From positions 1-23,051 of IMG/VR virus record IMGVR_UViG_2703718769_000008: a stretch of DNA of 23,051 bases. The stretch is one strand, 5' to 3'. A program made the position numbers. Below are positions 18,001 through 21,000 of this stretch, one piece after another (positions within the stretch are counted from its first letter, which is position 1; every line of letters starts with the position of its first letter). The DNA is from a virus. Its lineage: Duplodnaviria; Heunggongvirae; Uroviricota; Caudoviricetes.

Positions 18001-21000
18001 GTGATCCTGCTGGACTTTATGCGTCGGGAATTAAACCTGTCTAACTCATCTGTGCTTGGGGCTTGTCAGAAACTCCAGGAGGCTGTTGGCTTACCGAATC
18101 TGGCTCCGCGCTATGCAATTGATGCTCCTGCCGATGCACCCGATGGCTCAAGTCGCCCTACGCTGTCACTGAGTGCACTGCTGAAGCAGTATGGTATCCG
18201 CCTGACGGCTAATCAGGCATATCACCAGATGGTGAAGCTGGGGATCGTCGAGCAGCGCGAACGATACAGCCGTACCGCGATTAACAACATCAAAAAATTC
18301 TGGTCGCTGACAGCGAAAGGCTGCATGTTCGGCAAGAACATCACCAGTCCCGCAAATCCGCGCGAGACGCAGCCGCATTTCTTCGAATCCCGATTCCCTG
18401 AGCTGTTAAAGCTGCTCGATACCGTTCATTGAGGTGACCGTGAGAGCACTACTGACCCCTGAAATTGCCCCGCGTATGGGGATCGTATTGTTCAGGCCAG
18501 GTTCAGAGCTGATGCCCCTGTTTATGCAGGGGCGTGTCCTGCTGGAGCCTGAGCCGGAACGTTATTCATCTTTCGCCAGTGGTGCTGTTCCGGCGGCATC
18601 ACAACCGCTGGCGGATGATCCTGCCGTTCGGGCCGTGTTCCGCAATGAGGCAGTGATCCGTCGTGCTGGTGGCGTGGAATGTCTTGAAAGCTGGTTACTT
18701 CGTGAAAAAGGCTGCCAGTGGCCTCATTCCGACTGGCACAGCGAGAACATGACCACAATGCGACACGCGCCGGGCGCAATCCGTCTGTGCTGGCACTGCG
18801 ATAACCAGCTGCGCGATCAGTTCACGGAACGGCTGGAATCAATGGCAACGGATAACTGTGCCCGCTGGGTGTTGTCTGTCGTGCGTCGGGATCTCGGTTT
18901 TGATGATAGTCACGTTGTGACAATGCCGGAACTGTGCTGGTGGCTGGTTCGTAATGACCTGGCGGATGCCTTACCGGAAAGTGCAGCCCGTAAGGCACTG
19001 AGATTACCGAAGCCTGTTGTGTCGTCTGTCACCCGGGAAAGAGACCTTGTTCCTTCGGTTCCTGCCACCAGCATCATCCAGGATAAAGCGAAAAAGGTGC
19101 TGGCGCTGAAAGTGGATCCGGAGTCGCCGGAGTCTTTTATGTTACGCCCAAAACGTCACCGCTGGGTTAATGAAAAGTACACGCGCTGGGTTAAGACACA
19201 GCCGTGTGCATGTTGTGGAAAGCCTGCTGATGATCCCCACCACCTGATAGGCCACGGTCAGGGTGGAATGGGTACAAAAGCGCATGACCTTTTTGTGTTG
19301 CCTTTGTGCAGAAAGCATCACGACGAGCTGCATGCGGATACCGTGGCATTTGAAGAAAAGTATGGCTCCCAACTGGAGCTGATATTTCGTTTTATCGATC
19401 GTGCGCTGGCAATTGGCGTGCTGGCCTGATTTTGTGGAGAAAGTTGATGCGTGATATTCAGATGGTTCTCGAACACTGGGGAGCATGGGTAGCTAATAAC
19501 CATGAGGATGTAACATGGTCGTCTATTGCCAACGGATTTAAGGGGCTTATTCCAGCAAAGATAAAATCCCGCCCGCAATGTTGTGACGATGACGCGATGA
19601 TTATATGCGGGTGTATGGCGCGCCTGAACCGGAACAATAGTGAACTGCATGAATTGCTGCTTGATTACTACGTATTTGGAATGACTTTTATGAGTTTGGC
19701 AAGAAAACATGGTTGTTCGGATGGTTATATCGGTAAAAAACTTCAAAAGGCTGAGGGTATTGTTGACGGGATGTTAATGGCACTTAATGTTTCACTGGAA
19801 ATGGATGCATGCTAGATATTGCATGCAATATCTAGGAAGGATTCTGACTATTATTATATTTTTTACGAGTAGTAAGCATTGCATTGTAAATGACAGTTGT
19901 ATTATAAATGGTTATTGTTATCTTGGGATGATTTGTTTTTGACGGAGGTTTTATGTGGGGCGTTCTGGCTTTATCCTTGCTAAGTTTGAATGCATATAAA
20001 CTGTTTTCTTTGTTATTGTTAATAGCATCTGTTGTTTTGGGTGTCGCTAATGGAGTTATAGATTGGCCGGCATTTGGTCTCTTTACAATCGTTGGGCTAT
20101 TGTATTGGTTAAAAGTTAAGTGGGCACAGAAATCATGGTGTAGAATTGTTACGGAGAGTTGTTTAGTTGTATTATCTGTTGTGCTGCTATATCACTTTTG
20201 GCCTGGTTTTCATAACCCTGTGGTTTTGAATTCTGTAATAACCGGGCCGTTTAGTACGCCATACACCATGTATTTTAATTTTGATAAGGCCATGGTGCCA
20301 TTTTTATTGGTGTTATCTTTTCCCAGGTTGTTTAAGAGCGATTTCAGGTACGAAGTATCTTATGGAATGTGGGCCTTGCTCTTTTTATCTGTTCCATTTA
20401 TTTTGGTTTTAGCTGTTTTACTGGGTGGAATAAAACCAGAGGTTCATTTCCCGGAGTGGTTGCCAAAGTTTATATTGAGCAACTTGTTTTTTGTCTCTCT
20501 TGCTGAAGAAGCATTTTTCAGAGGATATCTTCAGCAGCGTCTTTCTATGATTGTACATCCATTTGTAGCATTGTTTATCGCTTCAGTTTTGTTTGGTCTT
20601 TATCATTATTCTGGTGGTTTGTTACTTGTACTGTTTGCAATGTTATCTGGAGTGATTTATGGCATGGCATGGATGTTTAGTGGACGCTTATGGGTTGCTA
20701 CATTTTTTCATTTTGGGTTGAATTTGTGCCACCTGTTATTTTTTACCTATCCATTCTTAAAAAATCATTGAACATGTTGTTGTTGACATCCTCCACGCCC
20801 TGAAGAACGGGGTTTACGGCTCACTGGATAATATTCACTCCATTAATGGTTAAAAATGAGTAGTAAAGCATTTACGTACGTAAATTATAGAATATGATGT
20901 TAAAAGTGGTTACTGTACCAAACTGCTAAATCCACCTGCGGGCGGTTTTTGTGTCTATGGATTGTCATTGCCCGGACTGTTGTTACTCTACATGGCCAGA

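What the first reader, a model, noticed from the sequence alone, without database searches (positions are those of the whole stretch)
19812..19835. Perfect 24-bp palindrome straddling the Q stop codon
CTAGATATTGCATGCAATATCTAG is exactly self-complementary over 24 bp, which is very unlikely by chance. It overlaps the last codons of Q and lies about 45 bp upstream of the candidate promoter. Its centre (TTGCatGCAA) reuses the TTGC/GCAA half-sites of the immunity operators but with a 2-bp rather than 7-bp spacer. It could be a binding site for a dimeric regulator, part of the Q-utilisation region, or an RNA hairpin at the 3' end of the Q message.
Basis: seen in the sequence. Interest (0 to 1): 0.5.

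Follow-up and report, generated by a model that had tools for sequence, protein, structure and literature searches.

The report
Lineage-specific palindrome at Q stop codon
The perfect 24-bp palindrome is real and not a chance event, but it occurs in only one young prophage lineage, lies about 1 kb from the real Q-dependent late promoter, and is most likely a replication template-switch by-product, not a regulatory site.

Summary
Observation confirmed. CTAGATATTGCATGCAATATCTAG sits at 19812-19835. Its left arm contains the TAG stop (19813-19815) of a 122-aa Q21-family (PF06530) antiterminator. No shuffle reached 12-nt arms (0/300 whole-window, 0/1000 local).

Interpretation mostly not supported.
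- The nearby promoter (19879-19908) drives a CPBP/Rce1-like cargo gene (19953-20771).
- The promoter that travels with this Q family has an invariant TTACGTACGTAA core, a -10 and usually a terminator. It lies after the cargo gene (window 20871-20898), about 1.05 kb from the palindrome. It is present in all five Q lineages checked.
- The palindrome occurs only in the 'AC-tail' lineage. An Stx-phage relative with the same Q tail has two non-compensatory changes in one arm, which is the background intergenic rate. Two sister lineages with the same DUF968-Q-CPBP order have no palindrome.
- The immunity operators are 15-bp TTGCG-N5-TGCAA, a spacing the palindrome cannot match.

Best reading (confidence about 0.5): a young inverted copy of the 12 nt around the Q stop, made or perfected by quasipalindrome template switching, with no conserved role. 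It can fold into a modest hairpin (-11.6 to -16.6 kcal/mol). A lineage-specific RNA or operator role is not excluded. Low interest.

The parts
19812..19835 (.). Perfect 24-bp palindrome CTAGATATTGCA|TGCAATATCTAG
   Evidence: Unique in the window. 0/300 and 0/1000 shuffles reach 12-nt arms.
19803..19844 (+). Extended imperfect inverted repeat, a predicted hairpin on the early (Q-sense) transcript
   Evidence: the 55-nt context folds at -16.6 kcal/mol (z -3.5). GGAU (19803-19806) pairs with AUUC (19841-19844) around the 10-bp core stem and CAUG loop. In a 121-nt context the fold is not exceptional (z -1.2).
19447..19815 (+). Antiterminator Q gene (122 aa, Q21 family); stop TAG at 19813-19815 inside the left arm
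   Evidence: Pfam PF06530, 174.9 bits. PDB Q21 hits 6P18 and 6JNX, E 5e-8. Annotated as antiterminator Q in NZ_AP042495. The conserved core ends at ...LEMD; the tails after it are hypervariable.
19879..19908 (+).
   Evidence: Read from the sequence. A homologous promoter sits at the same place in sister lineages: TTGTCA-17-GATAAT in L022, TTGCCA-17-GATAAT in L025 and TTGACA...TATAAT in L021. No terminator lies between it and the gene.
19953..20771 (+). CPBP/Rce1-like intramembrane protease gene (cargo gene between Q and the late promoter)
   Evidence: PF02517, E 2e-18. Annotated as a CPBP family endopeptidase. Homologues at 62-65% identity lie in the same Q-CPBP position in Shigella, E. albertii and Stx1 prophages.
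20871..20898 (+). Inferred Q-dependent late promoter PR' (TTTACG-16-TATGAT) with invariant core TTACGTACGTAA at 20872-20883
   Evidence: Promoter scan. The core is present exactly once in each of the 24 Q-bearing loci held at that point. It lies after CPBP, or just before holin S in DLP12-type phages. In relatives a strong terminator follows within about 45 nt.
21166..21195 (+). Intrinsic terminator downstream of PR' (GCCAGCC-N9-GGCTGGC followed by T7)
   Evidence: -14.5 kcal/mol, z -3.7. Sequence. The terminator directly after PR' is degraded in this window.

Best explanation
The palindrome is a young inverted duplication confined to one lineage. The 12 nt that begin with the last base of the Q Cys codon and the TAG stop (CTAGATATTGCA) were copied in reverse complement directly downstream. 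Alternatively, an existing 10/12 quasipalindrome was corrected to perfection. Either way the mechanism is a replication template switch, in which the nascent strand folds back and copies itself.

The palindrome sits at the boundary where the conserved Q core (...LEMD) ends and the variable cargo module begins. That module is an AT-rich CPBP protease gene with its own promoter.

It is not part of the Q-loading site. That site lies with the conserved TTACGTACGTAA promoter after the cargo gene. It is not an immunity operator either.

Its only predictable physical consequence is a modest AU-rich hairpin over the Q stop codon on early transcripts. That hairpin is probably neutral or nearly so.

Shown: the location, the uniqueness, the restriction to one lineage, the decay at background rate in a relative, and the position of the conserved late promoter.
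Inferred: the template-switch origin and the lack of function.
For: 1. Restricted distribution.
- The palindrome is perfect only in the 'AC-tail' Q lineage: the window, L001, L002, L005-L014, L020 and L038-L046, all nearly identical.
- It is in 2 of 5426 complete E. coli genomes and in no phage record.

2. Decay in a relative.
- An Stx-phage relative (L018/L019) has an intact Q at 95% identity with the same ...EMDAC* tail.
- It reads CTAGATATTGCATcCAATATaTAG. Both changes are in the right arm and neither is compensated.
- That is 2/24 sites, against 10/117 in the rest of the intergenic region and about 2% in the adjacent Q 3' coding sequence.

3. Absent from sister lineages.
- The VY-tail lineage (L021, L034-L037) and the MR-tail lineage (L022-L027, which includes Stx1 prophages) keep the Q-CPBP order (preceded by DUF968, then RusA in the MR type), a 122-150-bp spacer and the cargo promoter.
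- Neither has a palindrome or a significant hairpin at the Q stop.

4. Signature of an inverted copy.
- Against the VY sister, the left arm (TAG..TGCA) and the following GAAG are alignable.
- The right arm is 12 nt where the sister has 6 unrelated nt.

5. Raw material is common.
- There are 7 other 10/12 quasipalindromes in this window.
- Template switching is known to turn quasipalindromes into perfect ones in E. coli (PMC7202029).
- The same mechanism is invoked to explain the excess and persistence of perfect inverted repeats in Proteobacteria (PMC5941160).

6. The Q-cognate promoter is elsewhere.
Against: - Polarity is not established. The intergenic region is too diverged to use the sister lineages as an outgroup, so 'perfect then decayed' and 'imperfect then perfected' cannot be told apart. 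Only two haplotypes exist.
- In L018 the CPBP gene is fragmented. Decay of the palindrome there could therefore reflect relaxed selection on a cargo-gene regulator.
- At the RNA level, one of the two L018 changes falls in the 4-nt loop. A third change (19838 A>T) adds a lower-stem pair. Predicted stability is therefore almost kept: -15.8 against -16.6 kcal/mol. This is what a selected hairpin would look like, although three substitutions prove nothing.
- The centre of the palindrome is about 92 bp upstream of the inferred cargo-gene start, a spacing compatible with an upstream activator site.
- Lack of conservation does not prove lack of function in this lineage.
Confidence: 0.5

Rival explanations
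1. RNA hairpin with a function. On PR-initiated early transcripts the 19803-19844 inverted repeat folds over the Q stop codon. There it would protect the Q message against 3'-5' exonucleases, or serve as an RNase III entry site (sib-like retroregulation), or separate Q expression from expression of the cargo gene.
For: - The core hairpin folds at -11.6 kcal/mol (z -2.7) and the extended form at -16.6 (z -3.5).
- The L018 variant keeps -15.8 kcal/mol. One substitution is in the loop and one adds a pair.
Against: - In the 121-nt context the fold is unexceptional (z -1.2), and an alternative pairing with the upstream UGCAUGC competes.
- There is no conserved hairpin in the VY or MR sister lineages.
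- There is no Rfam match even at E<=1.
- No U-tract follows the stem, so it is not an intrinsic terminator.
- The stem is AU-rich, and at 10-19 bp it is short for RNase III.
Confidence: 0.17
2. Operator for a dimeric DNA-binding protein, host or phage and not yet identified. It would modulate the CPBP cargo promoter from about -92, or block read-through from Q into the cargo gene.
For: - Perfect two-fold symmetry over 24 bp.
- It lies 43 bp upstream of the -35 of a conserved promoter, with an A/T-rich UP-like tract between them.
- It has decayed exactly where the CPBP gene is a pseudogene.
Against: - There is no second copy of the half-site anywhere in the window.
- It resembles none of 18 recalled consensus sites above background. 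The one exception is a 7/8 lambda-CII-like ATGC-N6-TTGC, which has no usable -10 at the required distance.
- The immunity operators have a different spacing.
- The sister lineages run the same promoter without it.
- The palindrome stays perfect in L020, whose early-gene neighbourhood is different.
Confidence: 0.18
3. Part of the Q-utilisation (qut) region: a Q-binding element or pause-related element of the late promoter.
For: It is immediately next to Q, and -10-like TATTAT hexamers lie 14-22 bp downstream.
Against: - The Q21 binding element is a direct repeat (TGAGCA x2) between -35 and -10 (PMC6606751; bioRxiv 10.1101/651190). This site is inverted and lies 43 bp upstream of the nearest -35.
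- The element that co-occurs with this Q family in every lineage is TTACGTACGTAA plus a -10 and, in most lineages, a terminator within about 45 nt (degraded in the window and L018). In the window it is at 20871-20898.
- The recognition-helix region of Q is conserved across lineages that lack the palindrome.
- The palindrome is degenerate in an Stx phage that has an intact Q.
Confidence: 0.02
4. Extra operator for the prophage CI/Cro repressors, or a site for its CP76-type CII activator. The CII version would drive an activator-dependent promoter next to Q, such as an anti-Q promoter like lambda PaQ.
For: - A TTGC...GCAA core is shared with the operators.
- The phage encodes a PF06892 CII-family protein.
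- 186 CII binds inverted half-sites two helical turns apart (PMC6593788), and the outer CTAGAT/ATCTAG blocks here are 18 bp apart.
Against: - The operators are TTGCG-N5-TGCAA, 15 bp long, at 12770, 12794 and 13577. The palindrome places TTGC and GCAA 2 bp apart, which puts the half-sites on different faces of the helix.
- No palindrome-like half-sites occur near the cI/cro/cII region, where a CII-dependent establishment promoter should be.
- No acceptable -10 lies at the required distance on either strand.
- The palindrome travels with three different early regions.
Confidence: 0.05

Closest known systems
Quasipalindrome-associated template-switch mutations (E. coli thyA and lacZ reporters, T4 rIIB; Ripley 1982; Dutra & Lovett 2006; reviewed in PMC7202029). 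Also the genome-wide excess of perfect short inverted repeats attributed to this mechanism (PMC5941160).
   Same: - One arm is an exact inverted copy of the adjacent sequence.
- The differences from the nearest relative are clustered in one arm, and all of them raise complementarity.
- 10/12 precursors are common in the same DNA.
   Different: - No experimental or phylogenetic polarity is available here.
- The arms (12 nt, no spacer) are at the long end of what is usually described.
- The event, if real, also changed length relative to the sister lineage (12 nt against 6).
Q-binding element and sigma-dependent pause element of phage 21 PR' (Q21-family cassette; PDB 6P18/6P19, 6JNX)
   Same: It lies next to a gene of the same protein family (PF06530).
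   Different: - The QBE is a direct repeat inside the promoter spacer.
- The palindrome is inverted, lies outside any promoter, and is not conserved with Q.
- The family's conserved promoter is about 1 kb away.
Hairpins at the 3' ends of phage genes that control mRNA decay (lambda sib RNase III site; 3' stabiliser stem-loops) - from general knowledge
   Same: A stem-loop placed right at the end of a regulatory gene on a read-through early transcript.
   Different: The stem is shorter and AU-rich. It is not conserved in sister phages. There is no processing data.
Prophage cargo genes ('morons') with their own promoter inserted between lambdoid modules, e.g. nmpC/ompD between quuD and the lysis genes in DLP12-type phages
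   Same: An AT-rich cargo gene with its own sigma-70-like promoter lies between Q and the late promoter.
   Different: The palindrome is not a general feature of such insertions. It is found in only one sub-lineage of the Q-CPBP arrangement.

Membership tests
Q-binding element / qut site of Q21-family late promoters | Lies between -35 and -10 of PR', directly upstream of a -10-like pause element in the early transcribed region | tested here: not met
   The palindrome ends 43 bp before the -35 of the nearest promoter and about 1.05 kb before the conserved PR' at 20871-20898. Definition taken from PMC6606751.
Q-binding element / qut site of Q21-family late promoters | Two directly repeated subsites (TGAGCA x2 in phage 21) | tested here: not met
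   The arms are inverted, not direct. Definition from PMC6606751 and bioRxiv 10.1101/651190.
Q-binding element / qut site of Q21-family late promoters | Co-inherited with the cognate Q gene | tested here: not met
   Absent from the VY-, MR- and DLP12-type Q lineages, whose HTH regions are near-identical. Degenerate in L018. TTACGTACGTAA is the element that is co-inherited.
Immunity operators of this prophage (CI/Cro sites) | 15-bp TTGCG-N5-TGCAA, half-sites about one helical turn apart | tested here: not met
   Operators at 12770, 12794 and 13577. The palindrome has TTGC and GCAA separated by 2 bp. Its best match to the operator pattern is 6/10, no better than background.
Intrinsic (Rho-independent) terminator | G+C-rich stem followed at once by a U-tract | tested here: not met
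   Not called by the terminator scan. The stem is AU-rich and is followed by GAAGGAUUCUGAC. The T6 run begins 22 nt later.
Template-switch (quasipalindrome correction) product | One arm is the exact reverse complement of the adjacent sequence, and differences from relatives cluster in one arm and all raise complementarity | tested here: met
   The window and L018 differ at 19825 and 19832. Both are in the right arm, and in both the window state is the complementary one.
Template-switch (quasipalindrome correction) product | Outgroup shows the non-palindromic state to be ancestral, with the flanks alignable and the inverted copy appearing as a replacement or indel | tested here: inconclusive
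   The VY sister aligns over TAG..TGCA and GAAG, and has 6 unrelated nt where the window has the 12-nt right arm. The intergenic alignment is weak (65% mean column identity), and the MR lineage gives a different local alignment.
186-type CII activator site | Inverted half-sites two turns apart, centred at -38/-58 of an activator-dependent promoter; similar site at the establishment promoter | tested here: not met
   No related half-sites in 12700-14900. No acceptable -10 at the required distance. Definition from PMC6593788.
Curated RNA families (Rfam 15) | Covariance-model match | tested here: not met
   No hit over the palindrome at gathering threshold, or at E<=1 in 19700-22400.
RNase III / 3'-stabiliser hairpin | Transcript ends or cleavage at the stem; effect on mRNA half-life | not testable with these tools
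   Only folding energies are available.

The most novel reading that the evidence does not exclude
The palindrome, or its extended hairpin at 19803-19844, is a recently acquired regulatory element specific to this lineage. It would be either an operator for an unidentified dimeric regulator acting on the CPBP cargo promoter from about -92, or a processing/stability hairpin that sets Q dosage. Either would tie the timing of the lysis switch to expression of a membrane-protease cargo gene.
Probability: 0.2. Interest if true: 0.35.

Novelty: new member of a known kind. Interest (0 to 1): 0.15.

Why it matters
As a regulatory element it matters little. The evidence points to a neutral, recently formed palindrome.

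It is useful in two ways.
- It is a clean natural example of how a statistically 'impossible' perfect palindrome can arise from ordinary quasipalindromes. That is a caution against reading function from symmetry alone.
- Following it up located the likely Q-loading promoter of the QuuD/DLP12-type branch of the Q21 family. That promoter has an invariant TTACGTACGTAA core and is separated from Q by about 1 kb of cargo (CPBP or nmpC). The same arrangement lies upstream of stx1 in some Stx prophages, so it bears on how toxin and lysis genes are switched on.

Tried and rejected
- Exact-core scans. The 20-nt core in viral contigs found only the same prophage (L002). In genome contigs it found two unrelated chance or convergent hits, in a Sphingomonadaceae MAG and in Succinatimonas.
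- Q-tail anchor scans (GGAAATGGATGCATGCTAG). Viral contigs gave the same locus only. Metagenome contigs gave six unrelated sequences. No new palindrome variants came from any scan.
- BLAST. Distant BLAST of 19760-19960 against phages gave nothing. tblastn of CPBP against phages gave nothing. The E. coli complete genomes gave only 2 identical copies.
- Exact-protein look-ups of Q and CPBP gave many contigs, all essentially identical around the palindrome, so there is no within-lineage signal of selection.
- Consensus matching to Fur, CRP, FNR, LexA, TrpR, TyrR, PurR, Cra, NsrR, SlyA, ArgR, MetJ, IHF, Lrp, Nac, OxyR and the phage's own operator was no better than random AT-rich windows. The consensus strings were recalled from memory, so this is only a screen. 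The 7/8 lambda-CII-like match was dropped: there is no -10 at the right distance, and the phage's CII is of the 186/CP76 type.
- A CII(186)-type site was considered and dropped, because no related half-sites occur near cI/cro/cII.
- RNAalifold across lineages found no conserved hairpin. It predicted only a 6-pair consensus at -1.5 kcal/mol on a poor alignment.
- Using the MR or VY lineages as an outgroup for the two variable positions failed because the intergenic alignment is too weak.
- I considered the small ORF 19787-19942 (51 aa) that overlaps the palindrome but did not pursue it. I judged it unlikely to be a gene, because it lies over the Q 3' end and the cargo-gene promoter.
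Full report
**1. The observation**

Window 19812-19835 reads CTAGATATTGCATGCAATATCTAG. It is exactly self-complementary, with 12-nt arms and no spacer. It is the longest palindrome in the window. None of 300 dinucleotide-preserving shuffles of the whole window produced arms longer than 10, and none of 1000 shuffles of the AT-rich 19700-23051 part did either. Imperfect 10/12 palindromes are common by contrast: the window holds seven others, against about one expected from block shuffles. The inverted repeat continues imperfectly out to 19803-19844.

**2. Gene context**

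- The ORF ending in the palindrome is 19447-19815 and encodes 122 aa. It is a full-length match to Pfam PF06530 (E 6e-52). It is a distant sequence relative of phage 21 Q, whose structures are solved (6P18, 6JNX; E 5e-8). The TAG stop (19813-19815) lies inside the left arm.
- Downstream lies a 272-aa CPBP/Rce1-like intramembrane protease gene (19953-20771; PF02517).
- Further downstream are a tRNA-like remnant, tRNA-Arg and tRNA-Gly, an STnc100 match, and then, in the matching complete genome, nanS-p-like esterase, holin and lysozyme genes.
- G+C falls from about 50% to 33-38% around 19700-19800 and stays low.
- The exact region occurs in 2 of 5426 complete E. coli genomes and in no deposited phage genome. 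The exact Q and CPBP proteins are nevertheless listed in 655 and 801 index blocks of the draft-assembly collection, so they are present in many draft assemblies.

**3. Where the Q-dependent late promoter really is**

For Q21 the binding element is a direct repeat (TGAGCA twice) between -35 and -10 of PR'. A -10-like pause element lies in the initial transcribed region (PMC6606751; bioRxiv 10.1101/651190).

DLP12-type phages (PhiR49_1, mEp332, ev017) carry a Q that is about 80% identical at the DNA level. In them a reverse-oriented porin gene separates Q from the lysis genes. Just before their holin gene lies a conserved unit: TTTACGTACGTAAA, then 16-17 bp, then TATGCT, then GTTAAGAGTGGTTAC, then a strong terminator. 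The same unit is at window 20871-20950, after the CPBP gene.

The 12-mer TTACGTACGTAA occurs exactly once in each of the 24 Q-bearing loci held at that point. It is always after the cargo gene or before holin S. An alignment of eight loci representing all five Q lineages shows the core invariant while its flanks vary. In relatives the following terminator is strong (L022 -25.3 kcal/mol, z -4.4; L015 -13.9). In the window it is degraded, but a good terminator follows at 21166-21195.

I therefore assign PR' and the Q-loading site to 20871-20898. This is an inference from conservation and architecture, with no transcription data. That site is about 1.05 kb from the palindrome.

**4. The promoter next to the palindrome**

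The promoter is TTGCAT (19879-19884), a 17-18 bp spacer, then TTATAA/TATAAA. It lies about 45 nt before the CPBP start codon with no terminator in between. Homologous promoters occupy the same place in diverged relatives: TTGTCA-17-GATAAT in L022, TTGCCA-17-GATAAT in L025, and TTGACA...TATAAT in L021. L025 and the window even share TGTAAAT directly after the -35. This is the cargo gene's own promoter. The palindrome centre lies about 92 bp upstream of its inferred start.

**5. Comparative test of the palindrome**

A search for Q homologues shows that the family's conserved core ends at ...LEMD and that the tails after it are hypervariable. The palindrome begins 4 nt after the GAT (Asp) codon that closes that core.

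- (a) AC-tail lineage, perfect copies. Twenty-three loci (L001, L002, L005-L014, L020, L038-L046) carry the perfect palindrome. They are almost identical throughout, so they carry no information on selection. L020 has a different nin region upstream and keeps the perfect form. In L040 an IS sits in Q 29 bp upstream, and the palindrome is unchanged.
- (b) AC-tail lineage, diverged copy. L018/L019 is an Stx prophage with different replication genes. Its Q is intact, 95% identical, with the same ...EMDAC* tail. Its CPBP gene is fragmented. It reads CTAGATATTGCATcCAATATaTAG. The two substitutions are both in the right arm and are not compensated. Divergence is 2/24 in the palindrome, 10/117 in the rest of the intergenic region, and about 2% in the last 165 nt of Q.
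- (c) Sister lineages. The VY-tail lineage (L021, L034-L037; CPBP 65% identical) and the MR-tail lineage (L022-L027; CPBP 62-64% identical, several upstream of stx1) keep Q-CPBP, a 122-150-bp spacer and the promoter. They have no palindrome at the Q stop. They have no unusual hairpin there either (z +0.3, +0.4 and -1.1). RNAalifold finds nothing conserved.
- (d) DLP12-type Q genes also lack the palindrome.

The palindrome is thus a recent feature of one sub-lineage, and it is not kept better than its non-coding neighbours.

**6. Origin**

Against the VY sister, the left arm is alignable (TAG, then ..T.TGCA), and so is the GAAG that follows the palindrome. The 12-nt right arm takes the place of 6 unrelated nucleotides. 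The two window/L018 differences are both in the right arm, and in both the window carries the base complementary to the left arm.

This is the signature of a template-switch (quasipalindrome) mutation. The nascent strand copies itself and makes an imperfect inverted repeat perfect. The mechanism is well documented in E. coli (PMC7202029). It has been proposed to explain the excess and persistence of perfect short inverted repeats in Proteobacteria (PMC5941160).

Two orders of events are possible. In one, the inverted copy formed in the AC-lineage ancestor and L018 has since drifted. In the other, a commonplace 10/12 quasipalindrome was perfected in the window's branch. I could not decide between them, because the outgroup alignment is too weak.

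**7. Functional alternatives**

- RNA. The core hairpin folds at -11.6 kcal/mol (z -2.7) and the extended form at -16.6 (z -3.5). In 121 nt of context the fold is unexceptional (z -1.2), and an alternative pairing with the upstream UGCAUGC competes. No U-tract follows the stem, so it is not an intrinsic terminator. L018 keeps -15.8 kcal/mol, because one substitution falls in the loop and a third (19838 A>T) adds a pair. This keeps the RNA reading alive, but it rests on three substitutions.
- Protein binding. The immunity operators are 15-bp TTGCG-N5-TGCAA at 12770, 12794 and 13577. The palindrome's TTGC and GCAA are 2 bp apart, so the same dimer cannot fit (inference from helix geometry). No second copy of the half-site exists in the window. 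None of 18 recalled consensus sites matches above background, apart from a lambda-CII-like 7/8 match that lacks a usable -10. The phage's CII is of the 186/CP76 type. That type binds inverted half-sites two turns apart at -38/-58 (PMC6593788), and no related site exists near cI/cro/cII. An unknown regulator acting on the cargo promoter remains possible. It would fit the decay seen where CPBP is a pseudogene.
- Q-utilisation. Rejected, for the reasons in sections 3 and 5.

**8. Verdict**

Its link to Q action and to the immunity operators is not supported. The best-supported account is a young, lineage-restricted inverted copy at the Q/cargo junction, produced or perfected by template switching, with no conserved role (confidence about 0.5). 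The main rivals are a lineage-specific hairpin function (about 0.17) and an unidentified operator for the cargo promoter (about 0.18). Interest is low. The more useful by-product is the location of the conserved late promoter of this Q subfamily, separated from Q by a cargo gene, including upstream of stx1.

Noticed in passing
window 20871-20950 (also L015 4571-4655, L022 3401-3485, L025 3394-3470): Conserved late-promoter unit of this Q subfamily. It has an invariant palindromic core TTACGTACGTAA overlapping a TTTACG -35, then a -10, a GTTAA(A/G)AGTGGTTAC segment and (in relatives) a strong terminator. A cargo gene (CPBP, or nmpC/ompD) always separates it from Q, and in L025-L027 it lies upstream of stx1. 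It is probably the Q-loading site. Its symmetry contrasts with the direct-repeat binding element of Q21.
   Followed up: partly
window 13325-13350: TAATACTGT-N8-ACAGTATTA is a near-consensus SOS (LexA) box, CTGT-N8-ACAG. It lies inside the cI-like repressor gene (12864-13556, minus strand). The prophage also encodes a 108-aa protein consisting only of a LexA DNA-binding domain (16891-17217).
   Followed up: no
window 15110-15173: Cluster of inverted and direct repeats (GTCAGATTCTGAC, GTCAAAATCTGAC, GTCAAAATTTGATGCGTC) inside the HTH_36 replication-initiator-like gene (14809-15750). They look like origin iterons.
   Followed up: no
window 22825-23024; L001 11426-11485: Full-length Rfam STnc100 match (132 bits), ending in a terminator between the tRNAs and the nanS-p-like gene. 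In the matching complete genome an AgvB (anti-GcvB) match follows directly on the opposite strand, just beyond the end of the window.
   Followed up: partly
window 22295-22367: tRNA-like sequence scoring 28.3 bits, just under Rfam's 29-bit gathering score, and not called by ARAGORN. It lies directly before tRNA-Arg(tct) and tRNA-Gly(tcc). It is probably a decayed third tRNA of the usual lambdoid tRNA trio.
   Followed up: partly
window 19868-19881 and 20859-20873: GAGTAGTAA(A)GCATT is repeated just upstream of both the cargo promoter and PR'. Both are followed by ...GTAAAT and (A/G)TGGTTA(T/C)TG. The two promoters flanking CPBP may be diverged paralogues from an old local duplication. I did not see this similarity when I compared the two promoter regions by eye in the VY (L021) and MR (L022) lineages.
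   Followed up: partly
L040 1-1330: An IS3-family insertion sequence (409-aa transposase) has replaced or disrupted Q, ending 29 bp upstream of the palindrome. The palindrome, cargo promoter and CPBP are intact, so CPBP can persist without Q.
   Followed up: partly
window 12770-12784, 12794-12808, 13577-13591: Three 15-bp TTGCG-N5-TGCAA sites flank the repressor gene (5 matches to TTGC-N7-GCAA in the window, against 0.95 expected). These are the likely OL and OR operators. A further inverted repeat, TTGCGTGA-N13-TCACGCAA, lies at 13611-13639.
   Followed up: partly
L003 4562-4583: A Sphingomonadaceae MAG carries a 22-bp perfect palindrome, GAGATATTGCATGCAATATCTC, which shares the 20-nt core of the window's palindrome in an unrelated context. 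This is either coincidence or an independent operator.
   Followed up: no
Q homologues P0001-P0120 (C-termini): Q proteins of this subfamily are conserved up to ...LEMD. After that they carry unrelated tails of 0-40 residues. The recombination breakpoint between the Q module and whatever follows therefore lies inside the last codons of Q.
   Followed up: partly
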